Counted from the first letter of the stretch, positions 13,159-48,566 are shown. The stretch: 64,000 bases of DNA from Scenedesmus sp. PABB004 (GCA_014905635.1 JABVCE010000010.1:434001-498000); one strand, 5' to 3'. The notes: a model not told the origin generated them from the letters alone. Program-made: numbers and translations.

Positions 13159-13612
13159 GGCGGAGGGCCCTGCTGCTGCGGCGGCGCGGCGCGGCGCTCA
13201 CATCGGCGGCGCGCGCTGACTGCCCGCCGCGGGGGCTGTGGGGGCCGAATTGAGGCCGGGCGCGGGCTGGGAGCTGTGCAGTCGTGCCGGGCGCGGCCGT
13301 CGGGGCCCACCCTGCGCTGCGGCGGCTCGGGCAGCCGCGCGGGCGGGCGGTCGTTGGGGTGCAACGGCGCGGCGCAGCGCTGGCACGCGCCGGCCACCCC
13401 CGCAGCGCCGACAGCGCGCGCGCTCACACACATTCACCGGAGCTGTCAACGCGTCGCGTCACCAGCGCCCCCAGCAGCTCGCAGCCGCGCAGCCGCGGCG
13501 CGCACGACAACGGCGTTTGAGCGAGCGCCAACCGCCGCCGCGCCCGGCGCCTGCTGCGGTCGGGAGCGCGACTCAGCGTGAGACCTGGTCAGGTTGATCG
13601 GCCTGGGCCACC

Positions 13613-15369
13613 ATGGCGGACGCCGCCGCCGCGGCCACGTGCGCGGCGGGCGCAGTGGTGCCGCCCCCGGCGGCGGCGCGAACGAGTTTGAGGCGGCGCG
13701 CAGCGCGCGCATCCAGCGCAACCGCGAGCTGCTGGCCGAGCTGGGCGTGGAGCAGGCGGCGGCGGCGGTCAAGGCGGCCATGGGCGGCGGCAAGCGCGCG
13801 CGGTCCAAGCCCAAGGACGCGCCGCCGCCCGAGGCGCTCGAGCCGAGCCGGCGCTCCAAGCGCCTCGCGTCGGCGCCCGAGCCGGCGGCCGCCGCCGCGG
13901 CGGCCGCGGAGCCGCCGTCGGACAAGCCGGGTGCGCACGGCGACCGGCGGGCGGGCGAGCGGCGGCGGGGCTCTTTGGGCTCCGGACGAGCCGCCGCGCC
14001 AGCGCCACGCACGACGCCCGCCTACGCTGCCGCCGCTGCTGCCGCTGCCGGCGCAGACCCCGCGTCGTTGCTGACCCAAGCAGAGTACTTCAAGCTGATC
14101 GGCGAGGAGCTGGCGGGCTTCCAGTCGGACGGCGCGTTCAAGGGGTGCGCCGCAGGCGCGCGCCGCAGGCGCAGCAGGCGCAGCAGGCGCAGCAGGCGCA
14201 GCAGGCGCAGCAGGCGCAGCAGGCGCAGCAGGCGCAGCAGGCGCAGCAGGCGCAGCAGGCGCAGCGGCCGGGCGCCGCGGCCGCGCGGCCCTGCGCCCGG
14301 CTGGACGCAAGGGCGCGCGGCGCGCCGCCGCCGCCGCCGCCGCCCACGCCCGCAGTTGGGTGAGCCCCGCGATGTGCGAGCTCTACGGCATCGCCGCGAG
14401 CGCCGCCGACGCGTGGGCGGCGGGCGGCGGCGGCGCGTTCACCCGCAAGCCCGACATGGCGGCCGTGCCGGCGGCGCTCAAGGCGCAGGGCTGGAGCGAC
14501 GCAAAGGCGCGGCGCGGCGCGGCGCGGCGGCGGGGGGCGGTCGCCGGCGCGCCTGGCGCACACACACCGCCGCGAGCACACGACGCCCGGGCGCGCCGCA
14601 GGCCTTCGCGGCGACCCAACTCCGCAAGAACCCGAACGCTTACTTCTACCGCCACGTGGCGCCGCACTGCACCCAGGCGCGGCGCCCCGCGGCCGGCCGG
14701 CCGGCCGGCGGGCTCGCCGCGCGACGTGCGCGCGCGCGCCGCCCGCCGACCTGCGCCGCGGCCGCCACGGCGCTGCCACGCAGGCGCAGGGCGAGTGGAC
14801 CGAGGAGGAGCACGAGCTGTTCCTGGACACGGCGCGCAAGGTGGGCGCGCCACGGGCCCAGCGGCGCGGCGCGGCGCAGCACGGCGCGGCGCAGCGCGCC
14901 AGCTCACGCGCCCCCGCCGCCGCCCGCCGCCGCGCCGCGCCGCCAGCACGGCGTGGGCGACAAGTGGTGCGCGCGCGGCAGCGGGGCCGGCGGCTCGCGC
15001 GCTGCCCGCGCCCCGCCTCACGGCGGCGCGCCCGCCGCCGCCGCAGGGGCCTGTTCGCGAGCCACATCGGCACGCGCGTGGGCTACCAGTGCAGCGCCTT
15101 CTACAGGCGCGCGACCCGGCCGGCGCCCGCTGCGCCGCGGCGGCTGCAGCGACGCGGCGCGGCGCGGCTCGGCGCGGCGCGGCGCGGCGGCCGGGCCGGG
15201 GCGCCCGCCTGAGCCCCCCGACCCCCCGGAGCCCCCGCCGCTGGCGCGCAGGGACGTGATGATCGCCAAGGGCCTCATCATCGACGCGCGCTACAAGATG
15301 ACGCCGAGCGGGCACGTCGTCTGGGTCGGCGGCGGCGGCGCGGGCGGCGGCGGCGGCGGCGGCGGCTGA
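13613..15369 (+). CDS. Myb/SANT-like domain protein (apparent -1 frameshift near 13665)
   Basis: Spliced C-terminus LRKNPNAYFYRH..GEWTEEEHELFLDTARKHGVGDKWGLFASHIGTRVGYQCSAFYR. N-terminal motif NEFEAARSARIQRNRELLAELG. Confidence 0.75.
14165..14265. repeat. 9-bp tandem repeat (GCAGGCGCA)~11 in an intron
   Basis: Directly visible; lies between donor GTGCG at ~14145 and acceptor at ~14355. Confidence 0.9.
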
Positions 15370-15530
15370 GGCGCGCGCGGGGCCGCCGAGCGGCCGGGGG
15401 CGTAAAGAACCCCGCTGCGCCAGCTGTACCCGCGCGCTCGGCTCTCTCCGACTCGCGCTGGGCGCAACCAGGCGGCATAAGGGGCGGGCAGGCCTGGGCA
15501 GCGCTGCGCGCCGCCATCCGCTCCGCGCGG

Positions 15531-15604
15531 CCCGCTGCTGCTGCCATGTGCGAGCTTGCCCGGGGCGTGCGCCCTGCGGGCACGGCCATGGCAGCAGCAG
15601 CGGG
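15531..15604 (+). ncRNA. Hairpin 1 (putative small-RNA precursor)
   Basis: Perfect 18-bp arms CCCGCTGCTGCTGCCATG / CATGGCAGCAGCAGCGGG plus an inner stem. Confidence 0.45.
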
Positions 15605-15929
15605 TAGGACTCTGCCACGCGGCGCCACGAGGCGGCTGGGCGGCCGCGTGGGCTGTGTGGCGGCCGCGATCGCAGAGAGAGCAGCGGCGCCGCCGACCCC
15701 CGCGCGGCGAGCGGCCTCGGCGTCCGGGCGGTGCGGGCGTGGGCGCTCGCACCGCGCTCTCCCGTGGAGGCCGCGCCGCGTGTGCGCGGTCTCACACGCC
15801 GCCCGCCGCGCGCGCGCGCACGCAGGCAGGCGCGACCGCCGCGCGCCGCAGCGCCCCACGGTCCAGGTGCGCGCGCCGGGGAGCGGCGGTGGGCTGCGCT
15901 GGCCCCGCGCCTGGCCGGCGCGCGCGCGG

Positions 15930-16005
15930 CGGCGCCGCCCGACCGGCGCGCGCGCGGCGGCGCCGCCCGACCGGCGCGCGCGCGGCGGCGCCGCCCGACC
16001 GGCGC
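15930..16005. repeat. Short GC-rich tandem repeat (~28-bp unit GGCGCCGCCCGACCGGCGCGCGCGCGGC, ~3x)
   Basis: Directly visible. Confidence 0.7.
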
Positions 16006-16241
16006 CGCGCGCCGCGCGTCCGGGCGCAGCGGACCGGCAGCGCCACCGCTGCCCCTGCTGCTGCCGCCGCTGCAGCTCCGCCGCCCCAGGCGCGCCGCCG
16101 TCGCCGCCGCCGTCGCCGCCTGGGCGCGAGCGCGCTGCGACGCGTGCTGGGGGCTCTCGCAGGTAGGGCGCAGGCCCCGTCCGGCCCCGAGCACGCGTCG
16201 CAGCGCGGCCGCGCCCAGGCGGTCGTGGTGGTGGGCCGGCA

Positions 16242-16311
16242 GTGGCCGAGCGCCTTCAGGTCCGCGACGGCGATCAGACGGCGCCACCGCGTCCTGAAGG
16301 CGCTCGGCCAC
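16242..16311 (+). ncRNA. Hairpin 2
   Basis: Perfect 19-bp arms GTGGCCGAGCGCCTTCAGG / CCTGAAGGCGCTCGGCCAC. Confidence 0.5.
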
Positions 16312-16399
16312 CCCTGCGAGCGACGGCCCCGCCCGCGCGCAACCCGCCAAGCGCCCGCGCCGCGACGACGCCGCGGCGCCATCCCCACCGCCGCCCCGC

Positions 16400-16508
16400 C
16401 GCCGGCGGCCGTGCACAGCCGGGGGCTGCCCATCACTGAGCATGAACCTTTGGCCTGTGGTTCATGCTCAGTGATGAGCAGCCCCCCGGCTGTGCACGGC
16501 CGCCGGCG
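16400..16508 (+). ncRNA. Hairpin 3 (pre-miRNA-like)
   Basis: ~49-bp stem with one mismatch and one bulge; 10-nt loop TTTGGCCTGT. Confidence 0.6.
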
Positions 16509-16565
16509 TCGCCGCCGGCGGCCGGCCCGCGCGCGCGCGCTGTTGCCGCGGCCACGGGAGTGCTG

Positions 16566-16626
16566 GCGCGGGCTGTTTTTACCCTGTCGCCAGTGTCACT
16601 GGCGACAGTGTAATAACAGCCGCGCG
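16566..16626 (+). ncRNA. Hairpin 4
   Basis: CTGTCGCCAGTG-T-CACTGGCGACAG core, extended by GGCTGTT/AACAGCC. Confidence 0.45.
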
Positions 16627-17044
16627 GAAGCGTACGTCCTCAAAGATGCTCAGCGGCGCGTCAAAGCCGCCCACGCGCCGCAGGTCGAGGGGGCGCCGCA
16701 GCTGCGGCGGCGATGGCGGCACCGAACAGGCAGCTGCGTCGGGGGGGGGGGGGGTGGGGGGGTCTGCCAGCTCGCGGTGCATGCGCAGGGCCGGCCGCGG
16801 CGCGGGGGGCGGTCGCTGCTGCGCGGGCGCGCATGCCGCCGCAGCTCGGCGGCCGCGAGCCGGCGCCCACGCGCCCGCGCGCCGCGCGCCCGCGCGCCCG
16901 CGCGCGCGCGCGCGCAGAGGGCCCGTGCGGACCTGGTGCCGCTGCGCCAGCGCTGAGCTTCGCGCCCCGCCGCCGCCACCGCCGCCGCGCCCTGCACAAT
17001 GCCGCGTCACTGCCTGCTGACGCCACCCAGCGCTGTTGGCCCCC

Positions 17045-17186
17045 TCCCAGGCCGCGCGCGCCTGCTGCAGGGTGTCACGCGCGGCGAGGGCCGCAGGTGT
17101 CGCAGATCGCGTGCTGGCTTGCGCGGTGTCTGACGCACCTGCGGCCCTCGGCGCGACATCCTGCAGCAGGCGCGCGCGGCCTGGGA
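17045..17186 (+). ncRNA. Hairpin 5 (~140 nt, pre-miRNA-like)
   Basis: TCCCAGGCCGCGCGCGCCTGCTGCAGGGTGTC / GACATCCTGCAGCAGGCGCGCGCGGCCTGGGA (one G:U); inner stem GAGGGCCGCAGGTG / CACCTGCGGCCCTC. Confidence 0.6.
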
Positions 17187-17233
17187 TGCGACGACGACGG
17201 GCCGGCGGCAGCCGGGGGAGGCGCACATGCGGG

Positions 17234-17286
17234 GCAGCCGGGGTTGGTGCACGGTGCCCGATCTGGCTGGATCCAACCCCGGCTGC
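17234..17286 (+). ncRNA. Hairpin 6
   Basis: Perfect 14-bp arms GCAGCCGGGGTTGG / CCAACCCCGGCTGC. Confidence 0.4.
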
Positions 17287-17470
17287 GCGCTCCGGTGCCC
17301 GCCTCGGACGGCGGCGCCGTGATGGTCAGGCTGCCGTTCTTGCGAGAACGCCAGCTTGGCCGTCGCGGCGTCGCCGCCAAGGTTTCGGTGCGCGGGGGAG
17401 GCGGAGCTCGGACGACACGCCCTGCGGCAGCTCTGCGCGAGCGGAGCTGCGGCACCGCGTGCGCCGCGCA

Positions 17471-17534
17471 GGATCAAAGACAGTGACCTTGCCCTCGCGG
17501 GACCTCACCAGATCAAGGTCACTGTCTTTGACCC
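17471..17534 (+). ncRNA. Hairpin 7
   Basis: Perfect 18-bp AT-richer arms TCAAAGACAGTGACCTTG / CAAGGTCACTGTCTTTGA. Confidence 0.55.
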
Positions 17535-17544
17535 CGCTCCCCAT

Positions 17545-17601
17545 CCGCTGCATCCCGGTGCTGGCGCGCACGCGCGAGCGGGCCCTGGCTGGATGCAGCG
17601 G
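17545..17601 (+). ncRNA. Hairpin 8
   Basis: 11-bp arms CCGCTGCATCC / GGATGCAGCGG. Confidence 0.3.
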
Positions 17602-17716
17602 GAGAGGCTGCCAAGGCCCGCCGTGTGACTGGTGCGCCGCTCGTGGTGCGGGCGGCGTCCAGCCACATGACGCCTGCCCGCCCGCCCGGCCGCGCTGGTG
17701 GCGCCATCGCGCAGAG

Positions 17717-17860
17717 CCGCACCGCAAAGCTGACTGTCCCGCGCCACGCGCCGTTGCTGGTGAGCTCGTTCACCGTCCCGCTCTCAATCAGAACAGAGCG
17801 GTGGTCAACGAGCTCACCGGCAACGGCGCGTGGCGGGGGACGGTCAGCTTTGCGGCGCGG
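17717..17860 (+). ncRNA. Hairpin 9 (~144 nt, pre-miRNA-like)
   Basis: ~55-bp near-perfect stem (CCGCAAAGCTGACTGTCCC..GAGCTCGTT / AACGAGCTC..GGGACGGTCAGCTTTGCGG) with two U:G wobbles on +. Confidence 0.62.
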
Positions 17861-17948
17861 GCGGTGAGGGCGGCAGCCACACGCGAGCGCGCGCGCGCGC
17901 ACGCGGCCGCTGCCCTGCGCTGGTGTCGTGCTGCTGCACGGAGACGTG

Positions 17949-18017
17949 CGCAGGCCAACCTGGATCTTGACGCGGAAGCCACATGACCTGCCGGTCAAAA
18001 TTCCAGGTTGGCCTGCG
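17949..18017 (+). ncRNA. Hairpin 10
   Basis: Perfect 16-bp CGCAGGCCAACCTGGA / TCCAGGTTGGCCTGCG, extended by TTGAC/GTCAA. Confidence 0.5.
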
Positions 18018-18242
18018 GTGCTGCTCCCACAGGCAGCATCAAGTGCAGGTGCGCGCGCGCGCGCGCGCGCGGCCGCGCGGTCCGCTGGGGGCCGGGGCCG
18101 CCACCGGTGGCGCGAGGCAGCATCGCGTTGTGCGGCCCACCTCGCGCAGCGCGGCGGGCGCCTCGGGGCCGAGCTCGGCCGCGCGCGGCCCACGCGGCGC
18201 CGCCGCTGCCTGTGCTGCGCCGCGTGATCGAGGCGCAGGAGG

Positions 18243-18337
18243 GGCTGGGCGAGGCCTGCTCGTATGACAGGTAGGGCGTCGTTAGCACAACGTGCGCAAC
18301 GTGCGCTCACCCTGTCGTGCAAGCAGGCCGACCAGCC
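18243..18337 (+). ncRNA. Hairpin 11
   Basis: GGCCTGCTCGTATGACAGG / CCTGTCGTGCAAGCAGGCC with two U:G pairs on +. Confidence 0.5.
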
Positions 18338-18467
18338 TGCACGCACAGCTCAGCCCACCAGCCCTGCCACCGCACGAGCGTGCGCGCAAAGCTTACAGCC
18401 TCGTGCGTGGCTTTTGCGCGCACGCTCGCGCGCTGGCAGGGCTGGGCGACTGGGCTGTGCCTGCAGG
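18336..18467 (+). ncRNA. Hairpin 12
   Basis: CCAGCCCTGCCA..CGAGCGTGCGCGCAAA / TTTGCGCGCACGCTCG..TGGCAGGGCTGG plus outer GCACAGCTCAG / CTGGGCTGTGC. Confidence 0.55.
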
Positions 18468-18539
18468 TGGGCGGGCGCTGGCGGCGCCGGCGCTGCCCAC
18501 GCCGCCCCCACCGCGCAGTGTTACGCCCACACCGTCGCT

Positions 18540-18621
18540 CACGCCGGTGCCCAGGCATGTGACGGTCATGTGGCCGCTGTCACGTGGTGACCTCGCCGTC
18601 ACGTGCCTGGGCACCGGCGTG
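18540..18621 (+). ncRNA. Hairpin 13
   Basis: 26-bp arms CACGCCGGTGCCCAGGCATGTGACGG / CCGTCACGTGCCTGGGCACCGGCGTG with one U:G. Confidence 0.55.
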
Positions 18622-18824
18622 GCCGAGGGCGTGCACGTGCGCCGCTGCTGCGAGTGCCGCTGCTGCGCTCTGCGCGCGCGCCCCCCGGCGGCCTGCGTGT
18701 CGCCGCCACCCGCGCGCCGCCGCCCGCGCGCGCCGCGCCACTTGACCATGGGCCGGTCATGCAGCACACAAGCTGCGGCGCTGCCCTTGAGCGGGTGGCT
18801 GCCCCTCACGCCGCACCCGGCCAG

Positions 18825-18898
18825 GCCGCGCCCGACCCTGATCATGTTGTCTGGTGCTGACCAACGCTCCGAACAACCTGCTCAGGGTCGGGCGCGGC
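18825..18898 (+). ncRNA. Hairpin 14
   Basis: Perfect 17-bp GCCGCGCCCGACCCTGA / TCAGGGTCGGGCGCGGC. Confidence 0.5.
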
Positions 18899-19215
18899 AC
18901 GGCCGACAGTTGCGGCGGCGTGGACGGCCTGGCCCCGCGCGCGCAGGCGCGGCCGGGAGACCTCGCTGGCTCGGGCTGAACCGCGCGGCGCGCGGCGCGC
19001 GGCCGGGCTGGGCGCCGAGCGTCCGCCGTGCGCCCGCGCCCGCGTCGGCCCTCGCCTCCTGCCGCCGCGTGCTGCCCCGCGCAGGCACGGCACCGGCCCT
19101 CGCCTCGTGCGCCGCGCGCTGCCCCGCGCCGGCCGCGGCGGCGGCGGCCGGCAGCGGCGGCGGTGTTCTTGCGGAGGTCAGCCGCCGGTGGTCAGCCGCC
19201 TGGTGGGTCCCTCAT

Positions 19216-19263
19216 CAGCCTGACCCCCGCGGGACGCCGGCGCGTTGGCCGACGGTCAGGCTG
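19216..19263 (+). ncRNA. Hairpin 15
   Basis: 10-bp CAGCCTGACC / GGTCAGGCTG. Confidence 0.3.
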
Positions 19264-19299
19264 CAGCCTCGCCGTTGGGGATGTTTGGGGGGGGGGGTC

Positions 19300-19370
19300 T
19301 TGGCGTTGCAGAGGTCAAAGTTGGAGCCAGCCTCACCAGCTGGTTTGACTTCTGACCTCTGCGGCGCCAA
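19300..19370 (+). ncRNA. Hairpin 16
   Basis: TTGGCGTTGCAGAGGTCA / TGACCTCTGCGGCGCCAA with two U:G; inner GCCAGC / GCTGGT. Confidence 0.55.
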
Positions 19371-19889
19371 CACCTTCCACGCCAAGACCCCAAGGACGGC
19401 GAGAGCGCGGCCTCGGTGAGGCAGCAACCCGCGGCCCCCACGCGCCTGCGCGCGCGCGGCCCCATCGCCCGCGTCGCGGGCCACGTTGCAGAGACCTCGC
19501 CCGCGCGGCGCAACGCCTCGTTGAGTTTTTTGAAGGCGCCCACGCGCCGCTCAATCAACCTCAGCGCGGCGCTGCGCCGCGCGGGCACAGCAGCCTCATG
19601 TGTTGGCCTCGGCGCGCCGGTGCGCCCGCCTCCTGGCCCAGCGCGCCGGATCGAGTCCCGGCTCCGCTCGGCAACGAGGTGGGCGCACCGGCGCCCGCGC
19701 CCGACCCGCGTGCGGCTGCCTCGCTGCGGCGGCGCTGGCAGCGGCTGAGCGGCGCGCGCCTGGGTCGGCCGAGCGGGCGCGGCGTCTGCGGCGGCTGAGC
19801 GGCGGCTGGCTGCGGCCCGCGCGGCGCGCGCGCGGCTGGACCGGCGGCGCGCGACGTGCAGAAGCACCCGGTGCAAACGGTCAGGGGCG

Positions 19890-19894
19890 TTACA
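19890..19894 (-). terminator. Putative green-algal polyadenylation signal TGTAA for the PsbP-domain gene
   Basis: TTACA on +, ~140 nt past the stop at 20035. Confidence 0.45.
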
Positions 19895-20034
19895 CGACGG
19901 ATCGGCCCCGAGCACGCGCAGCATGCTGCTGCTGGTGCAGCTACATGAAAAACAAGCAGCACACTGCGATGGCAGAGCGCTGCGCGCTGGGTCCGGCGGC
20001 AGCACGCGCTCGCTCGCCGCCGGCCGGCGCTCGT

Positions 20035-21663
20035 TCAGAAGAACAGCCTGCGCGCGGCGGCGGCGGCGGCGGCGGCGGCCGCTGCAGCGTCAGGGAGCCG
20101 TCGCGCGCGCTGCAGCGCGCGGCCGCGCGCGGGCAGGCCGCCCAGCCAGAGGTCGCGGGCAGGGGGCTGCGACAGACAAAAACGCCCCCCAGCGGCGGCG
20201 CGGCGCGCACCAGGGGTTCTGGTCGGGCGGGATGTACGCGTCAGTCGTGGGCAGCAGGCGGAAGCTGTCGACCGCGGCCTTGAAGCCGCCGGCCATGTCG
20301 GCCCACAGCGCCTGCGGCGCGGCGCGCGCGGCCGCGGGGGTCCGCGGCGCACGCCGCCGCACGCCCCCGCCGCCGCCGCGCGCGACTCCACCCCGCGCCC
20401 CCGCCGCCGCGCCCCCGCCGCCGCGCCGCCGCCGCCGCGCCGCCGCCGCCGCCGCCGCGCCTGGGGGCAGGAGAGGTTGAGAGTGTAGAGGTAGGGCTTG
20501 CCGTCGAGCCCCGGGCGCGTCGTCGTGACGGCGAGCGCGTGGCGGTAGGTCTCGGCCTTGATGCTCGACACCGTGGGCGAGCCCTGCGTGGTGTGCTCAT
20601 ACACGTAGTATGTCTGCCCGCCCCGCTCCTCCGCGTGCGCCTCCTCGATGTCGTTCAGCGCCGTGCGCTGCCCGCTCGACAGCCGCGCGGTCGACCTGCG
20701 CGCGGCCGGGGCGCCGCGCTCGCGCCGCGCTCGCGCCGCTGCGTCCGGCCCAGCCGAGCGCGCCGCGTGCCGCGCTGCGCGGCGCGCCTGTCGATGAGCA
20801 CGGTCAGCGCGACGTCGCGCGGCTTCCACGCCTCCTGCGGCGCGTCGCGCAGCACGCCGCTCGCGGGGCCGACCGTCATTGACACCGTCACGAAGCGGCG
20901 CAGGTCAAAGACCTCGCTCACGATGCGCTGCCGCGCGTCGGCCGACAGCGGCGCGGCGCTCGAGTACTGCGAAGCGGCGCGGCGCGGCGTGCGGCGCGCG
21001 TCGGCCCGCTGCCGCCGCGCCAGCTTGCCGCGCCGTGCCAGCTTGCCGCAGCGCCGTGTCGCGGCACCTTCTCGGGCGGGTGCGTGAGCGTCATCTGCAG
21101 CGCCTCGCCGCCGGCGGTCGCGACCGGGTAGATGAAGCTATAGGCGAGGATGGGGTCTGCCAGCTCAGCAAAACCCTGCGGCCGGGGTGTGGGGGCGCGG
21201 CGTCAGCCGGGCGCGCGGCGGCAGGGGGCCGCGGCGGGCGGCGCTGGGCGCGCGCGCGGCGCCGCCGCTCACCGCCGGCGCGGCGTCGGCCGCGGCCGCC
21301 GCGGCGCGCGGCGCGAGCTGCGCCGCGCCGAGCGCGGCCGGCGCGAGCAGCGCGCCCAGCAGCGCCTGCCGTCTGCTGGCCGCCGCCGCCTGCTCGCGCG
21401 CCTCCTCGCCTGCGCGGCGCGGCGGGCGGCGGTGGCGGGCGTGGGCGGCGGGCGGCGAGCGCCGCGCGCCCCGGTGGTGGCAATTCCGGCGTCGCCGCCG
21501 CAGCACACCGCGCCGCCGCCCCCGAACCTGGCTGCCGGCCGGCGGCCGCGCGGCAGCAGCCGCGGCGCGCGGCGGGCGGCGGCGCGGCCGGACCGCCGCT
21601 GAACGGCCGCCGCGCCGCCCGGGCGCCCGCCGCCTGCTGCTGCGTGTGAGCGGCGATCCTCAT
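20035..21663 (-). CDS. PPD5: PsbP domain-containing thylakoid lumen protein (PPD5-like)
   Basis: Transit/RR-type signal; PEKYSSAAPLSADARQRIVSE, YYVYEH..GSP, YRH..YLYTLN, VDSFRLLPTTDAYIPPDQNPW|LFF*. Confidence 0.82.
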
Positions 21664-33907: not shown

Positions 33908-34704
33908 TCACTGCAGCGCCCCGAGGCCCGAGCCGACGCCGGCCTCCCCGGGCTTGGTGTACTGCTGCGGGCGCATGCGGTTGTCAAACAGCACGCCGAT
34001 GTTGGGGCCGTCGCGGTCAACCTTGACCTGCCGCCACGCCAGGTCGGTCGGTGCGCGCGCGCGGCGGCGGCGGCGCGCGGATGTGAGAGCGCGGCGCGCC
34101 GCCGTGGCGCGCCCCTGTCGGCCAGGCCTGGTGCTGCGCGGGGGCCGGCCGCGGCGCCGCGTCGCCGCGGCGCGTCGCCGCCGCGCCTGCGCCAGGTGCC
34201 AGAAGACCGAGTGCTTGCCGCGGGCCGCGTCCTCCCAGCCGCCGCGGCCGGTCTCGACCTGCTTCTCGATGTCGCCGCGCATGTTGATGTCCCAGCTGCA
34301 CGCGCGGGCGGGCGGGCGGGCGGGCAGGCGGGCGGCGATCGCGCGGCGCGGGCCCGGCCGGCGCGGGCCGCGCGCGGGCCAGCGCCGCCGCTCACTAGGC
34401 GCCCGCCGTGTTGTTCAGCAGCACGCGCTTGGCCGCGTACGCGCCGCCGCCAACGGCGAGGACGACCCACGCATAGAGCAGCCCGACCTGCGCGCGCGGC
34501 GGGCGGCGGGCGGCGGCGGTGCGCGGCAGCGGCGCTCGGCGGCGGCGAGCGCGTGCGGCGGCGGCGCCTGGCGGGTGGCGAGCACGTGCGGCGGCGGTGG
34601 GGCGGCGCACGGACCTCGGGGGCGTCCCGCGTGCGCGCCCACAGCTTCGCCAGGCGCCCCGCGCGCTGCGCCGTGGTCAGGCCGACGCCACCGGGTGCTG
34701 CCAT
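33908..34704 (-). CDS. Small single-TM protein, weakly NDUFA4/B12D-like
   Basis: Spliced MAAPGG..RDAPE|VGLLYAWVVLAVGGGAYAAKRVLLNN..WDINMRGDIEKQ..|WRQVKVDRDGPNIGVLFDNRMRPQQY. The family call is weak. Confidence 0.55.
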
Positions 34705-35308
34705 CGCGACTGTGCGTGTGCGGAGGGTGGGGAGGGCGTGTGTGTGTGCGCGGTGTGTGCGCGGCCCGCGGCGGTGCCGCGCCGCTCGCGTGACGTCGGC
34801 ACCGCGGTTTTTCCCGAGACGCGCGGTCTTGCGTGCGCTGTCCGCTTGCGCTCTGAGCTCACGCCCTGACCGCGCCCGCGCTCGCCCTGCCTCGCCGTCG
34901 ACCGCCGCTGCCGGCCGCCGCTGCCCGCCGCCGCCGCTCGTCCGGCCGCCGCTGCAGCCGCGGGCCGCCCGCCCTCCACCCACCGGTCGACCCACGCCGT
35001 TCAGCGCGCCGGGCGCAGGGCAGCGGCACCAGCAGGTCGGCGGGCCCGGCGGCGCCGCTGCCGCTCGCTGCTGCTGTCGCCCAGCGGCGGCTGCGCGGCC
35101 CGCGGCGGTCCGCGACCGCTGGCGCTGCTGAAGGCAGACGGACCAGGCGCAGACGGCCGCCGCAGCAGCACAGCGCCTGAGAGCCGCCAGCGCGCGGGCC
35201 GGCGGCGCCGCTGCCGCGCACTGCACAGCAACTCGCACCGCGCCTGCTGCGCGCAGGCCGTCCCCCCATGCGCACCTGACCCCTCCCCGCCCCAGCGGCG
35301 CCGCCGGC

Positions 35309-36680
35309 ATGGCGGCACGCGGGCGGGGCGGGCGGGGCAGCTGGCGCGGCGGCCGCGGCGGCGGCCGCGGCGGCGCCGGCCCGCCCGGCCTCAAGGACGA
35401 CGACGGCAACGTGGTGGCGGTGGAGCAGCAGACGGGGCCGCCGCCGCTCTTCCCGGTGGGCGCAGCGGGCAGGGCGCCGGGGCGCGCGCGGGGCTGCCGC
35501 GCTGCAGCGCCGCCCGCCCACGCACGAGCCGCGCCCGCGCCCGCGGCGCGCAGGCCATCGAGCTGCACTGCGAGCCGCCGGAGCCGACGCCGCACGACCG
35601 GCTGCTGCTGCTGCGCCGCGCCGACCTGCTGCGCAGCTACCGTGCGTCGCCCTACCACCTCGCGGCCGCGGAGCGCGCAGCGGCGCGCAGCGGCGGCGGC
35701 GGCGGCGGCGGGGACGTCGAAAGATACTCTGACCGGTGTGCGCGGCGCGCCGCAGGGGCGGTGGCGGGCCCGGCAGCTGCGCCGCGCGAGCGGCGGCGCC
35801 GTGCGGGCCCGGCGCGAGCCCCCGCCGCCCGCGCGGCGCAGGTTTGTCAAGCGCTCGGGCGGCAAGGCGCCGCCGAAGCCGCCGCTGGCCAGCCTGCTCA
35901 CGCTGCACCCGCACCACTTCCCGGAGGAGCTCTACAGCGACCACGACCGCCGGTGCGCATGCCGGCCGCGCGCGCCGGCGCGCGCCCGGCGGGCCGGCCG
36001 GCGCCCAGGCGGCGCGGGGCGCGTGGCGCGGCGGGGCGCGCTCGCCCGCCGGCCGACGCCCGCTGCCGCCGGCGCGCCGCGCGCGGCGCAGGCTGGCGGC
36101 GAGGGGCCTCGGCGGCGAGCTGTTCAAGCGCGCGCCGGCGGAGGAGGGCAGCGCGCTCGCAAAGCGCCTGGACACCTTTACCCAGCAGGCGCGCGCGCCC
36201 GCGCCAAGCCGGCCCCGCGCGCCCGCGCCGCGCCGGGCGGCGCCCCCCCCCCCCCCCCCGCCCACGCCCGCCCGCCCGCCCTCCCGCCGCGCAGGAGGCG
36301 CAGCAGGGCCGCGCCGGCGCGCCGGGCGGCCGCCCCGCCGGCGGCGCGGCCGAGCCGGCCGCCGCCGACGACGACGACGCGCCGGCGGGCGGCAGCTACG
36401 ACGAGGACGATGATGATGTGATGGAAGAAGATGACTACTACCAGGCGCGCGCCTTGGGTGGCAGTGGCGCGGCTGCGCGCTCGCGGCTGCGTTCTCACGG
36501 CCGCGCCGGCAGCGCGCGCACCGGCGGCCGCGGCCCGGCAGCGCGCGCGCGGCGTCGGCGCCCCGCCGCCGACACGCGCGCCGCGCCTGGCATGGTCCCC
36601 CCCAGGGCGAGCAGTTTGACGATGACGAGGGCTACGACGACGCCTGCGACGACGGCGGCGACGAGGGCCCCACCTACTGA
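35309..36680 (+). CDS. RPC7: RNA polymerase III subunit C31/RPC7
   Basis: RG-rich N-terminus, GPPPLFP, SPYHL, DVERYSDR, FPEEL, acidic tail EEDDYYQ|GEQFDDDEGYDD..EGPTY*. Confidence 0.88.
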
Positions 36681-37440
36681 CCCACTCGGCCCCCTCGGGC
36701 ACCCGCCCCGCGCGCCGCATCCGCGGCGGGCGGGCGTGGGCGTGGCGCCGCGTCCGCGCTCGGCGCCGCGTGCGCTCGGCGCCGAGCGCGGGGAGCCTGC
36801 CGGTGGCGGCCGCACGCGTGGGCCGGCGCGGCGGCGTCGCGGCGGCGGCGCGGCGCGGTGCGCCCGAGCGCTGCAGATGGCGGGCTCGTACCGGCGCGGT
36901 GCGCCTGCGCGCTTCGGCGAAGCCCACGGCGGCGGGGGACAGCGGGAAACGGCAGGCCGAGAGTGGCAGGCACCTGACCTTCCGCGCGCGGCCGTGCGCG
37001 GCGCCCGCGGCGCGCCGGGCGGTGCTTGGGTCCACGCGCACGGCGCGTGGGGCCGGGTGGCGCGCCGCCGACGGCCCCGCGCGGGCAGGACTGGCCCCGG
37101 GCGGACGGCCAGGGTAATGTTGTCAGTGCCCGCGCGCGCCCGCGCGCCCGCCGCCTGCCGCCGCCGCCCGGGGCGCACTCCGAGGCCTGTCACCGTGCCC
37201 GCACGCCCCGCGACGGTCGGCAGGGCACTTGCGCGCAGGGCGCGCGCGCGCCCGCGCCCGCACACGGCGCCCGCTGCACGGTGACCGCTGCACGGCGCCC
37301 CATGGCCGCCACCGCTCGTTGGCTGGTGAAGTCATCGCCCACGGCGCGGCATGAAGCGCGGGCCCGACGGCGCGCCCGGGGGCGAGGATGGGACGGCCAA
37401 GGCCGCCCGCGCGGGGCGTGGCACCGAACCGCCGCAACTG

Positions 37441-38343
37441 CCGCCGCCGCCGCCGCCGCCGCCCCGCAGGTGGCCGCAGTGCCCCTGGTGGGACCTGCCC
37501 CGCGCGCGCGCCGCGCGCCGCGCCGCGATCGGCAGCCTGGACGACTGAGGTGTGCGACGCGCGCCGCGATGCGCTGCGTGCTGTGTCCCCTTCCCCATGG
37601 GGAATACAGTGCTGGCCAGCACTGTATGTGCTCGCTGTCGGCCGTGCCCCGCGCTGCCTGCGCGCAGCAGCGGCGGCGCCCAATCCGTTCCGCGTGACTG
37701 CCAGCCGTTGACTTGACTTGCTGCCAGAACTTGCCTCGCTGCCGCATCCCCCTGCTGCGTTGCTGCCGCGCGTGTCCGTGAGCGAGCGGGTTGAGGGTAA
37801 CCTGCCCGTTCCGCGAAGTCTGCACTCTGCTGCCAGGGGCGTGGGTGGGGGCGCTCGCGCTCGCGGGCGGCCGGCAGGGTTGCCAGGCCCGACGGCAACG
37901 CGCCCGCTGCCACCTGCGGCAGTCAATCACCCGAGCGCGTTCAACGTTGCTGGGCCGAGGCAGAGGCAGCAGGCGGCATGCAGACTGCGGTCCCCACACA
38001 CAAGGCCCCACGCGTGACATGCGGCCAGCGCGGCGCGGTCGCCACCGCGCACGGCAGGCCGCGCCGCAGCCCGGCGGCCAAGGCGCGCGCCGCCGCTCGG
38101 CGACGCGCGCACTGCTGCAGAGCGCCGCACGCGCGCGCCGGTCCCCGCCAGCGCCTCACTCAGCGCGCCTCACTCACTGCAGCGCCCCGAGGCCCGAGCC
38201 GACGCCGGCCTCCCCGGGCTTGGTGTACTGCTGCGGGCGCATGCGGTTGTCAAACAGCACGCCGATGTTGGGGCCGTCGCGGTCAACCTTGACCTGCCGC
38301 CACGCCAGGTCGGTCGGTGCGCGCGCGCGGCGCGGCGGCGGCG
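37441..38343 (+). repeat. Diverged direct duplicate of ~33175-34075 (BKT last exon/3'UTR plus last exon of the minus-strand gene)
   Basis: Near-identical sequence with small indels and substitutions. Confidence 0.93.
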
Positions 38344-38790
38344 GCGGCGAGCGAAGGTGAGCGCAGCGCACCGCCGTGGCAGCAGGCGGCATGCAGACTG
38401 CGGTCCCCACACACAAGGCCCCACGCGTGACATGCGGCCAGCGCGGCGCGGTCGCCACCGCGCACGGCAGGCCGCGCCGCAGCCCGGCGGCCAAGGCGCG
38501 CGCCGCCGCTCGGCGACGCGCGCACTGCTGCAGAGCGCCGCACGCGCGCGCCGGTCCCCGCCAGCGCCTCACTCAGCGCGCCTCACTCACTGCAGCGCCC
38601 CGAGGCCCGAGCCGACGCCGGCCTCCCCGGGCTTGGTGTACTGCTGCGGGCGCATGCGGTTGTCAAACAGCACGCCGATGTTGGGGCCGTCGCGGTCAAC
38701 CTTGACCTGCCGCCACGCCAGGTCGGTCGGTGCGCGCGCGCCGCGCGGCGGCGGCGGCGGCGAGCGAAGGTGAGCGCAGCGCACCGCCGT
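37965..38790 (+). repeat. 413-bp tandem duplication (37965-38377 / 38378-38790)
   Basis: Both units start GGCAGCAGGCGGCATGCAGACTG and end GCACCGCCGT. Confidence 0.93.
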
Positions 38791-38869
38791 GGCCGCACCC
38801 AGGCCTGGTGTTGCGCGGGGGGCGGCCGCCACCGCGACCGCGGTCGCCGAGCGCGGCCGTGCAGGCCGC

Positions 38870-39755
38870 CGCGCGCGCGGGTGTCGGCGCCCCGCCGCGA
38901 CCTGCGCGCCGCGCGCCGCGCGCCGCCTGGCATGCCCCCCCCCCCCAGGGCGAGCAGTTTGACGATGACGAGGGCTACGACGACGCCTGCGACGACGGCG
39001 GCGACGAGGGCCCCACCTACTGACCCACTCGGCCCCCCTCGGGCACCCGCCCCGCGCGCCGCATCCGCGGCGGGCGGGCGTGGGCGTGGCGCCGCGTCCG
39101 CGCTCGGCGCCGCGTGCGCTCGGCGCCGAGCGCGGGGAGCCTGCCGGTGGCGGCCGCACGCGTGGGCCGGCGCGGCGGCGTCGCGGCGGCGGCGCGGCGC
39201 GGTGCGCCCGAGCGCTGCAGATGGCGGGCTCGTACCGGCGCGGTGCGCCTGCGCGCTTCGGCGAAGCCCACGGCGGCGGGGGACAGCGGGAAACGGCAGG
39301 CCGAGAGTGGCAGGCACCTGACCTTCCGCGCGCGGCCGTGCGCGGCGCCCGCGGCGCGCCGGGCGGTGCTTGGGTCCACGCGCACGGCGCGTGGGGCCGG
39401 GTGGCGCGCCGCCGACGGCCCCGCGCGGGCAGGACTGGCCCCGGGCGGACGGCCAGGGTAATGTTGTCAGTGCCCGCGCGCGCCCGCGCGCCCGCCGCCT
39501 GCCGCCGCCGCCCGGGGCGCACTCCGAGGCCTGTCACCGTGCCCGCACGCCCCGCGACGGTCGGCAGGGCACTTGCGCGCAGGGCGCGCGCGCGCCCGCG
39601 CCCGCACACGGCGCCCGCTGCACGGTGACCGCTGCACGGCGCCCCATGGCCGCCACCGCTCGTTGACTGGTGAAGTCATCGCCCGCGGCGCGGCATGAAG
39701 CGCGGGCCCGACGGCGCGCCCGGGGGCGAGGATGGGACGGCCAAGGCCGCCCGCG
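38870..39755 (+). repeat. Direct duplicate of ~36540-37411 (RPC7 last exon, intergenic DNA, start of the E2F-like gene)
   Basis: Near-identical at an offset of ~2343 bp. Confidence 0.93.
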
Positions 39756-48300: not shown

Positions 48301-48566
48301 GGGGGCTCTCCGGCGGCCACGCCGCCGCGGTGGAGCACCGGCAGTCGCTGCAGCGCCTCGTGCGCGCGCTGGGCGGGCGCGTGTGCGGCGCGCGCGCCGC
48401 GGACGTGTGCGTGGTGTGCGGCGCCGCGCCCGTGCCGCGCGAGCTGCCGCCCGGCGCCGCCGCTGTGCGCGAGGAGTGGCTGCTGCGGCTGGCGGAGACC
48501 CACGCCGGCGCGGACGACGTGCGCGGTTTTGAGGTGCAGCGCGCCGCCGGCGGCCAGCGAGCCTAG
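44514..48566 (+). CDS. Microcephalin (MCPH1)-like BRCT protein with an internal RanBP2-type zinc finger
   Basis: N-terminal BRCT (LQQHGARVAPRFSREVTHLVV..VPTAWVTKC); WACPRCTLEN...CDACG; C-terminal BRCT pair (SHLVVGAERRTLKLLLGVANGAWLLRPEWLTDS; VREEWLL). Confidence 0.8.

What the first reader, a model, noticed from the sequence alone, without database searches (positions are those of the whole stretch)
15531..19403. Dense array of ~16 unrelated long hairpins: candidate polycistronic miRNA/small-RNA cluster
Seen in sequence: between the Myb-like stop (15369) and the PPD5 poly(A) signal (19890) there is no credible gene. Instead there are ~16 fold-backs of 50-145 nt with stems of 10-55 bp, several AT-richer than the background. 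The arms do not resemble each other, so this is not a MITE or tandem-repeat family. Most stem imperfections are G:U-compatible on + (hairpins at 17045, 17717, 18243, 18336, 18540, 19300), which suggests selection on + strand RNA structure. I saw no comparable density elsewhere in the window. Established: chlorophytes such as Chlamydomonas make miRNAs from long hairpins. Inference: a single long precursor yields many different small RNAs.
Basis: partly seen in the sequence, partly recalled or inferred. Interest (0 to 1): 0.9.

Follow-up and report, generated by a model that had tools for sequence, protein, structure and literature searches.

The report
Dense array of unrelated DNA hairpins
A 4.3-kb gene-free gap in a very GC-rich, green-alga-like genome is packed with about twenty different long hairpin-forming sequences, which may be a multi-hairpin small-RNA gene, but nothing yet shows that it is transcribed or cut into small RNAs.

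Summary
The hairpin array is real and is the only one of its kind in the 64-kb window. I curated 23 fold-backs between 15530 and 19754. Nineteen fold far better than dinucleotide shuffles (z <= -4) and 16 reach z <= -6. Block-wise shuffles of the cluster give 0.05 comparable inverted repeats against 12 observed. The arms match nothing else in the window. The stretch shows no coding signal, Pfam domain or Rfam family.

Only 19 of 69 in-stem mismatches are G:U-compatible on +, against 13 on - and 37 on neither strand.

I could get no RNA data, genome or close relative. The microRNA reading is therefore untested.

- Best reading (0.4): a non-coding hairpin-RNA locus, born by local inverted duplication, whose transcripts would be Dicer substrates like Chlamydomonas long-hairpin precursors.
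- Main rival (about 0.27): a neutral hot spot of inverted repeats at the DNA level.
- Minor rivals: 3'UTR or read-through hairpins of the flanking genes, a MITE nest, and a non-B-DNA chromosomal element.

Interest is moderate.

The parts
15530..15606 (.). Hairpin H1, 77 nt, 32 pairs
   Evidence: z -7.0 on + and -6.0 on - against dinucleotide shuffles; inverted repeat I23
16097..16241 (.). Hairpin H2, 145 nt, 59 pairs; core arms 16116-16154 and 16184-16222 are 92% complementary
   Evidence: z -9.5/-6.8; I6
16242..16311 (.). Hairpin H3, 70 nt, with a 19-bp perfect basal helix
   Evidence: z -9.1/-9.2
16351..16562 (.). Hairpin H4; core 16400-16512 with 1 in-stem mismatch, outer extension to 85 pairs
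   Evidence: z -17.9/-16.6 for the core; 212-nt fold of -171 kcal/mol; I3
16567..16627 (.). Hairpin H5, 61 nt, 61% GC; contains one of the two + strand TGTAA sites of the window
   Evidence: z -9.5/-8.5
17045..17186 (.). Hairpin H6, 142 nt, 62 pairs, longest helix 32 bp
   Evidence: z -15.5/-14.5; I9 at 94%
17225..17292 (.). Hairpin H7, 68 nt (moderate)
   Evidence: z -4.4/-3.9
17286..17395 (.). Hairpin H8, 110 nt; 5 of its 6 stem mismatches are G:U on +
   Evidence: z -8.6/-5.1; + more stable by 18.8 kcal/mol
17406..17470 (.). Hairpin H9, 65 nt (moderate)
   Evidence: z -4.6/-1.3
17468..17537 (.). Hairpin H10, 70 nt, 59% GC, 18-bp perfect helix; - strand fold more stable by 13.7 kcal/mol
   Evidence: z -7.9/-8.8
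17537..17605 (.). Weak fold-back H11, not clearly above chance
   Evidence: z -2.3/-1.6
17622..17670 (.). Hairpin H12, 49 nt
   Evidence: z -5.7/-4.5
17691..17886 (.). Hairpin H13, 196 nt, 82 pairs; core arms 17717-17774 and 17803-17860 are 91% complementary
   Evidence: z -15.6/-18.4; I2
17940..18028 (.). Hairpin H14, 89 nt, 63% GC
   Evidence: z -6.2/-8.4
18243..18325 (.). Weak to moderate fold-back H15
   Evidence: z -3.9/-1.8
18326..18477 (.). Hairpin H16, 152 nt, 63 pairs
   Evidence: z -10.2/-9.3; I1
18523..18638 (.). Hairpin H17, 116 nt, longest helix 28 bp; extends to 18490-18676
   Evidence: z -8.8/-7.6; I7
18735..18803 (.). Weak fold-back H18, not above chance
   Evidence: z -2.4/-0.4
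18818..18905 (.). Hairpin H19, 88 nt
   Evidence: z -8.3/-9.9; I12
19263..19409 (.). Hairpin H21, 147 nt (up to 217 nt and 85 pairs with its outer extension 19235-19451); G11 run in the 5' arm
   Evidence: z -11.0/-6.1
19479..19609 (.).
   Evidence: z -7.1/-6.1
19610..19698 (.). Hairpin H23, 89 nt; larger fold 19546-19754
   Evidence: z -6.5/-7.1
15607..16096 (.). GC-rich spacer with a (CG)6 tract at 15807 and a 28-nt tandem repeat x3.9 at 15908-16016
   Evidence: spacers are 84.2% GC
16628..17044 (.). Largest hairpin-free spacer: G14 run at 16741 and (CG)8 at 16899. Its position would suit an internal promoter, but nothing shows one.
   Evidence: inference only for any promoter role
13582..15369 (+). 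Last coding stretch of the upstream + strand gene, stop at 15367-15369.
   Evidence: codon periodicity; no Pfam hit
20035..20829 (-). 3' exons of the downstream - strand PsbP-domain gene, convergent with the upstream gene
   Evidence: PsbP PF01789, E=3.7e-4, below the curated cut-off; 16 metagenome relatives of the exon

Best explanation
The 4.3-kb gap between two convergent genes is a non-coding locus. It consists of about 19 independent, non-homologous long inverted repeats separated by GC-rich simple-sequence spacers.

The hairpins most likely arose in place by local inverted duplication, that is, template switching during replication. This mechanism creates a perfect stem in one event and can extend existing inverted repeats. 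The arms have since picked up 2-15% stem mismatches.

If the locus is transcribed from either strand, the RNA folds into a chain of long near-perfect hairpins. In an alga with a Dicer-like enzyme these would be cut into hairpin-derived siRNAs or young miRNA-like small RNAs, as Chlamydomonas DCL3 cuts long hairpins in non-coding RNAs and 3'UTRs.

Shown: the array, its statistical excess, its uniqueness in the window, and the absence of coding signal. Inferred: the origin by inverted duplication, transcription, Dicer processing and any target. Undetermined: the strand, and whether there is one precursor or several.
For: - The array is far above chance and unique in the window.
- Stems are 20-85 bp, and 22 of 23 hairpins hold a 21-nt duplex with <=4 unpaired bases.
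- The arms are of ordinary sequence complexity, 59-83% GC and 71.7% overall, between 84% GC spacers.
- This is the largest stretch of the window without a periodic ORF: 4.7 kb against <=1.9 kb for the other gaps. Other convergent gaps are <=1.25 kb. In a compact genome that suggests something occupies it.
- No direct-repeat family and no target-site duplications were found.
- Passages read in three papers:
  - Chlamydomonas miRNAs and siRNAs come from stem-loops in non-coding RNAs, introns and UTRs, cut by DCL3 (PMC4817775).
  - Chlamydomonas miRNAs are young, not conserved, and often come from fairly long hairpins (PMC5511227).
  - Template switching creates perfect miRNA-type stems in one event (PMC10710096).
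Against: - No evidence of transcription or small RNAs could be obtained.
- It is unknown whether this organism has Dicer or Argonaute.
- There is no significant strand bias in stem mismatches: 19 G:T, 13 A:C, 37 other. The many transversion-type mismatches look like neutral decay rather than selection on RNA pairing.
- The strand energy trend is marginal (p=0.06) and conflicts with the AT skew of unpaired bases.
- The locus lies between two gene 3' ends, so it needs its own promoter or read-through. No promoter was identified.
- No target-like match exists in the window: 5 hits of 21-mers, all with 3 mismatches.
- No Rfam family reaches threshold; the best is 42 bits against a cut-off of 78.
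Confidence: 0.4

Rival explanations
1. Neutral hot spot of inverted repeats at the DNA level. Hairpin- and Z-DNA-prone sequence in an unconstrained gap stalls replication and provokes repeated template switching. This creates, homogenises and extends inverted repeats. The array is a mutational by-product with no RNA function.
For: - Mismatches are symmetric between strands and rich in transversion types.
- Arm complementarity ranges from 70% to 94% among the cluster's listed inverted repeats. That fits a birth-and-decay series.
- (CG)n>=6 tracts are enriched, with 5 of the window's 20 lying in 6.7% of its length, and they bracket hairpin groups.
- Hairpins abut each other with spacers of 0-20 nt from 17286 to 17886.
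- Template switching is reported to create stems and to expand inverted repeats (PMC10710096, passages; PMC13100816, abstract start in the search listing only).
Against: - About 9 kb of other non-coding gaps with similar GC (71-82%) carry no such repeat, so a purely neutral process would need a very local trigger.
- No hairpin is brand-new. None is perfect over more than about 32 bp. That argues against a currently very high birth rate.
- This account is compatible with the best explanation as an origin story. It differs only in denying RNA function.
Confidence: 0.27
2. The hairpins belong to extended 3'UTRs or read-through transcripts of the two convergent flanking genes. There they act in cis, either as Dicer-type cleavage sites that destabilise the mRNA (as with DCL3 and Chlamydomonas 3'UTR hairpins) or as a termination and collision buffer. 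They do not form an independent precursor.
For: - The AT skew of unpaired and spacer bases is +0.07 next to the + strand gene and -0.21 next to the - strand gene. In most genes of the window the sense strand shows this sign: 10 of 12 + genes and 5 of 8 - genes.
- One + strand TGTAA lies at 16609, 1.2 kb past the upstream stop.
- Valli et al. report 13 mRNAs with UTR miRNAs, 26 with UTR siRNA precursors and 9 with hairpins that give no small RNAs. They infer that at least 43 of these mRNAs may be cut directly by DCL3 (PMC4817775, passages).
Against: - The skew rests on 100-190 A/T bases per segment.
- TGTAA occurs at chance frequency.
- A - strand TGTAA at 19890 would end the PsbP-domain mRNA before the array.
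- UTRs of 1-3 kb would be unusual in a genome this compact.
- The G:T against A:C trend points to the opposite strands.
Confidence: 0.1
3. A nest of small palindromic transposons (MITE or foldback-like), each from a different family, inserted side by side.
For: - Fully palindromic MITEs of 60-200 bp exist in many eukaryotes and can give miRNA-like hairpins (recalled knowledge, not from a call).
- Copy number in the rest of the genome could not be checked.
Against: - No arm has a second copy in the other 59 kb. The 40 longest of 153 outside matches are all simple repeats of GC >=0.94.
- The hairpins share no terminal motif.
- Flanking direct repeats are no longer than at control positions: mean 3.65 against 3.85 nt.
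- About 20 different families landing within 4.3 kb and nowhere else in 64 kb is improbable.
Confidence: 0.07
4. A structural chromosomal element that works as DNA, such as a small unique centromere or a replication-fork barrier marked by cruciform-prone, non-B-form DNA.
For: - It is the largest gene-free gap in the window, slightly lower in GC than its flanks.
- It shows extreme dyad symmetry on both strands with no strand bias.
- Dyad symmetries are reported to be enriched at centromeres (PMC5889037, title and abstract start in the search listing only).
Against: - The published centromeric dyad symmetries are <10 bp (same abstract). These are 20-85 bp.
- Other parts of the window have equal or lower GC.
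- Without the genome I cannot test whether there is exactly one such array per chromosome.
Confidence: 0.06

Closest known systems
Chlamydomonas reinhardtii long-hairpin miRNA and siRNA precursors processed by DCL3 (Valli et al. 2016, PMC4817775; Voshall et al. 2017, PMC5511227; passages read)
   Same: - Green-alga-like nuclear context.
- Long near-perfect stem-loops of variable length in non-coding or UTR sequence.
- No conservation expected.
- Sequences unrelated to known miRNA families.
   Different: - Those precursors are defined by small-RNA reads and dependence on DCL3. Here there is no RNA evidence.
- The passages I read describe single hairpins in introns, UTRs or non-coding RNAs, not an array of about 20 different hairpins in 4.3 kb.
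- Two library searches listed no paper describing such an array in a green alga. That is not an exhaustive search.
Polycistronic miRNA clusters of animals such as mir-17~92 (recalled knowledge, not from a call)
   Same: Several different hairpins lie close together on what could be one primary transcript, at a density of about 5 hairpins per kb.
   Different: - Animal pre-miRNA stems have a uniform length of about 35 bp (PMC10710096, passage). Here stems range from 20 to 85 bp.
- Several neighbours here are 0-20 nt apart.
- Animal clusters are conserved and expressed. Neither property is known here.
Hairpins generated by template-switch mutation and expansion of inverted repeats (Monttinen et al. 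2023, PMC10710096, passages read; PMC13100816, abstract start in the search listing only)
   Same: Unique local inverted repeats with short loops arise without transposition. They can seed new miRNA genes.
   Different: Published cases are isolated events identified by ancestral reconstruction. Here about 20 lie side by side, and no outgroup is available to infer the events.

Membership tests
miRNA / hairpin-siRNA precursor locus (plant and algal criteria) | A single-stranded transcript that folds into a hairpin holding a ~21-nt duplex with few mismatches | tested here: met
   Twenty-two of 23 hairpins have a 21-nt window with <=4 unpaired bases and <=2 nt of asymmetry. Nineteen of 23 have z <= -4. 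This is a prerequisite only, and it is easily met in 80% GC DNA.
miRNA / hairpin-siRNA precursor locus (plant and algal criteria) | The locus is transcribed | not testable with these tools
miRNA / hairpin-siRNA precursor locus (plant and algal criteria) | Discrete 20-24-nt small-RNA duplexes from the stem with 2-nt 3' overhangs, dependent on Dicer | not testable with these tools
   No small-RNA data are reachable.
miRNA / hairpin-siRNA precursor locus (plant and algal criteria) | Strand-specific conservation of RNA pairing (G:U tolerated, compensatory changes) | tested here: not met
   In-stem mismatches are 19 G:T, 13 A:C and 37 other (p=0.38). The energy difference between strands gives p=0.06. 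No relatives are available for a covariation test.
Known RNA families (Rfam 15) | A covariance-model score at or above the family's gathering threshold | tested here: not met
   There are no hits at gathering score in the whole window. In 14500-20500 there are 21 sub-threshold hits, all generic miRNA hairpin models. The best is 42.2 bits against a threshold of 78.
MITE / foldback transposon | Multiple copies with shared terminal inverted repeats | tested here: inconclusive
   There are no second copies in the 64-kb window and no similarity among the hairpins. The rest of the genome could not be searched.
MITE / foldback transposon | Target-site duplications flanking each element | tested here: not met
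   The best flanking direct repeat averages 3.65 nt at the hairpins and 3.85 nt at 920 control positions. The fraction reaching >=5 nt is 17% against 28%.
Inverted duplication of a target gene (model for young plant miRNAs and hairpin RNAs) | Arms derived from coding sequence of another gene | tested here: not met
   - The codon-usage score of the arms (0.34) is below that of non-coding gaps (0.46), cluster spacers (0.47) and held-out exons (0.60).
- Three-base periodicity exceeds shuffles (p=0.011), but that is not specific to coding sequence.
- One ORF frame across H11-H15 has no protein relative at E<=1 among proteins of 151-482 aa.
- Only one of the six frames and one length class were tested.
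Tandem repeat / satellite | Head-to-tail copies of one unit | tested here: not met
   Only short GC-rich arrays lie in the spacers, for example a 28-nt unit x3.9 at 15908-16016. The hairpins themselves are not repeats of each other.

The most novel reading that the evidence does not exclude
This is a dedicated multi-hairpin gene. One compact non-coding locus in a very GC-rich green alga encodes about 20 different Dicer-substrate hairpins. Outside animals I know of no polycistronic small-RNA locus this dense (recalled, not from a call). It would act as a library of silencing triggers, for gene regulation or for defence against mobile elements and viruses, and new hairpins would keep being added in place by template switching.
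Probability: 0.15. Interest if true: 0.8.

Novelty: new variant of a known kind. Interest (0 to 1): 0.5.

Why it matters
If the array is transcribed and diced, it would be an unusually large cluster of unrelated small-RNA hairpins in a unicellular alga. The Chlamydomonas papers I read describe algal miRNAs as young, single-hairpin and of little measurable function. Such a locus could also show many small-RNA genes being born side by side from local inverted duplications. If it is only a DNA-level hot spot, it would still be a striking natural case of clustered palindrome formation in an 80% GC genome. Either outcome can be settled with one small-RNA library, one stranded RNA library and the full genome.

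Tried and rejected
- **Whole genome:** none is held for this window. Copy number, Dicer/Argonaute content and other arrays could not be checked.
- **Sequencing runs:** no RNA holder is listed. Only two freshwater-metagenome DNA runs hold 6% of the sampled words.
- **Read laying:** I then left it, as the tool instructs.
- **Metagenome contigs, DNA pattern:** a 22-nt pattern from both arms of H4 gave 0 matches.
- **Metagenome contigs, protein scan:** a scan with the neighbouring PsbP-domain exon gave 16 loci at 55-76% amino-acid identity.
  - Fifteen of the 16 are from genomes of about 46-51% GC. One (L003) has 74% GC, but only 100 nt lie downstream of the match.
  - None shows a hairpin array, so no comparative test was possible.
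- **Earlier notes of this scan:** there are none for this genome or for look-alike sequence. Word searches gave only leads from other genomes.
- **Arms copied from elsewhere in the window, or targets in cis:** rejected.
- **Arms derived from coding sequence:** not supported.
- **Transposon target-site duplications:** none beyond chance.
- **Shared short motif:** GGTCA/TGACC is about 3-fold denser in the cluster (19 in 4.3 kb against 84 in 59 kb). That is explained by the lower GC and by the double counting inherent in palindromes, so I did not pursue it.
- **TGTAA as a poly(A) signal to delimit transcripts:** it occurs at chance frequency.
- **Strand inference:** three weak measures disagree, so the strand is left unresolved.
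  - G:T against A:C mismatches by position: 1:9 left of 16990 and 24:9 right of it, from a post hoc split that includes chance GC-rich folds.
  - Energy difference between strands.
  - AT skew of unpaired bases.
- **Organism:** Mychonastes homosphaera (72.4% GC, miRNA number given as 0 in the genome-statistics table; PMC7354681, passages) was considered. The window is about 80% GC, so the organism is left unnamed.
- **Supplementary tables:** none of the cited papers' supplements were opened.

Full report
**Setting.** The window is about 80% GC throughout. It carries ordinary eukaryotic nuclear genes with introns. Pfam finds kinesin, Sec1, CN-hydrolase, cyclin, E2F/DP, BRCT, transaldolase and an EF-hand kinase-type gene, and a PsbP-domain exon just right of the finding. 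Together these point to a green-alga-like organism. No whole genome is held for the window, and I leave the organism unnamed.

The finding lies between the stop of a + strand gene (15367-15369) and the 3' end of the - strand PsbP-domain gene (stop near 20035). The flanking genes are therefore convergent.

**Is the array real?** Yes.
- Ten of the 25 longest inverted repeats of the window lie here, including all six with >=83% complementarity.
- I regressed the folding energy of 150-nt windows on GC content. Twenty-eight of the 40 strongest outliers on + and 24 of 40 on - start within 15.5-19.65 kb, which is 6.6% of the window.
- A DNA-level scan found 89 inverted repeats with alignment score >=60. 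The 74 outside the cluster all have GC >=0.80 and are simple-sequence-like. Fifteen lie in the cluster. All 11 of ordinary composition (GC <=0.79) lie in the cluster, as do the four highest scores in the window, 142-189.
- Sixty dinucleotide shuffles within 500-nt blocks of the cluster gave on average 1.7 repeats at score >=60, 0.05 with GC <0.8 and 0.55 at score >=80. The observed numbers are 17, 12 and 10.
- I curated 23 fold-backs. Nineteen have z <= -4 and 16 have z <= -6 on +. Four are weak or at chance: 17537, 18243, 18735 and 19197.
- Stems reach about 85 pairs over about 215 nt when outer extensions are included.

**What it is not.**
- It is not coding. There is no codon periodicity, and no periodic ORF lies between 15366 and 20038. 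At 4.7 kb this is the largest such gap in the window. The others are <=1.9 kb.
- Six ORFs across the region have no Pfam hit.
- No Rfam family reaches threshold, either here or anywhere in the window.
- It is not a repeat family. The arms match nothing else in the window except GGC/GC simple repeats, and they do not match each other.
- Tandem repeats are confined to the spacers.
- Flanking direct repeats are no longer than at control positions, so the hairpins show no transposon footprints.
- The arms do not look like copies of coding sequence.
  - Three-base periodicity exceeds shuffles (p=0.011). A codon-usage score nevertheless places the arms (0.34) below non-coding gaps (0.46), spacers (0.47) and exons (0.60).
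  - One long ORF frame across five hairpins has no protein relative. This covers one frame and one length class only.
- No 21-mer from the arms has a near-complement elsewhere in the window beyond five 3-mismatch hits.

**Anatomy.**
- Hairpin sequence totals 2254 nt at 71.7% GC. It alternates with 1915 nt of spacers at 84.2% GC.
- Five of the window's 20 (CG)n>=6 tracts lie in the cluster and bracket groups of hairpins.
- From 17286 to 17886, six hairpins follow each other with 0-20 nt between them.
- Isolated in-stem mismatches number between 0 and 8 per hairpin. Arm complementarity of the cluster's listed inverted repeats ranges from 70% to 94%. No helix is perfect beyond 32 bp. The hairpins therefore appear to differ in age, and none is brand-new.

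**Strand.** This does not hold.
- Among isolated in-stem mismatches, 19 are G:T, 13 are A:C and 37 are of neither type.
- Over all aligned arm columns the counts are 51, 35 and 100.
- The + strand folds are on average 3.2 kcal/mol more stable (p=0.06; 14 of 23 favour +).
- A post hoc split suggests A:C excess left of 16990 (1:9) and G:T excess right of it (24:9).
- The AT skew of unpaired bases has the opposite implication. It is +0.07 on the left and -0.21 on the right, matching the sense strand of the nearer flanking gene.
- I regard the strand as unresolved.

**External evidence.** None could be obtained.
- Only two metagenome DNA runs hold a small share of the stretch, and no RNA holder is listed.
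- A 22-nt arm pattern has no match in metagenome contigs.
- Relatives of the neighbouring PsbP-domain exon are distant, sit on short or unrelated contigs, and show no such array.

**Interpretation.** A transcribed long near-perfect hairpin is a Dicer substrate wherever RNAi exists.
- In Chlamydomonas, DCL3 cuts stem-loops in non-coding RNAs, introns and 3'UTRs. It yields miRNAs or siRNAs and sometimes only destabilises the host mRNA (PMC4817775, passages).
- Chlamydomonas miRNAs are young, not conserved and often come from fairly long hairpins (PMC5511227, passages).
- Template switching during replication creates perfect stems in one event and has seeded human miRNA genes (PMC10710096, passages).

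The most economical account is a non-coding locus where local inverted duplications have accumulated and whose transcripts, if any, feed the small-RNA machinery (confidence 0.4).

The same origin without any RNA role is the main rival (0.27). It fits the strand-symmetric, transversion-rich mismatches. It does not explain why about 9 kb of other non-coding gaps of similar GC have none.

The lesser rivals are:
- cis-acting hairpins in extended 3'UTRs or read-through of the two neighbours (0.10);
- a nest of unrelated palindromic transposons (0.07);
- a non-B-DNA chromosomal element such as a small centromere (0.06). Published centromeric dyad symmetries are <10 bp (PMC5889037, abstract start only).

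**Novelty and score.** Two library searches listed no description of such an array in a green alga. That is not exhaustive. If the array is expressed and diced, it would be a new variant of clustered small-RNA genes. As it stands it is a robust and unusual structural observation with an untested function, and I score interest at 0.5.

Noticed in passing
window 34000-39700: There are 99-100% identical direct duplications here. 36597-36989 recurs at 38940-39333 (spacing 2343-2344). 37960-38259 recurs at 38373-38672 (spacing 413, 99% identical). 34000-34066 recurs at 38266 (100%) and 38679 (99%). This is either a recent segmental or tandem duplication or an assembly duplication.
   Followed up: partly
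window 10875, 16741, 19287, 36243, 38935, 57098, 62793, 63126: Long homopolymer C or G runs of 11-24 nt are scattered through the window. Two G runs lie inside the hairpin cluster.
   Followed up: no
window 15807, 16528, 16899, 17888, 18052: Five of the window's 20 (CG)n>=6 tracts lie inside the 4.3-kb cluster, where about 1.3 are expected. They bracket groups of hairpins. They could be Z-DNA or fork-stalling elements.
   Followed up: partly
window 48325-48404 (+): ARAGORN calls a tRNA-Thr(CGU) inside a long BRCT-domain ORF. Rfam finds no tRNA at gathering score, so the call is probably false.
   Followed up: partly
window 15908-16016: A 28-nt GC-rich tandem repeat of 3.9 copies at 95% identity lies in the first spacer of the cluster.
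   Followed up: no
L006 5141-5412 and L011 5257-5418: Two long contigs of about 50% GC from the PsbP-exon scan each carry one very strong inverted repeat (scores 394 and 254) about 4.6-4.9 kb upstream of the PsbP-like exon. These genomes are unrelated to the window's organism.
   Followed up: no
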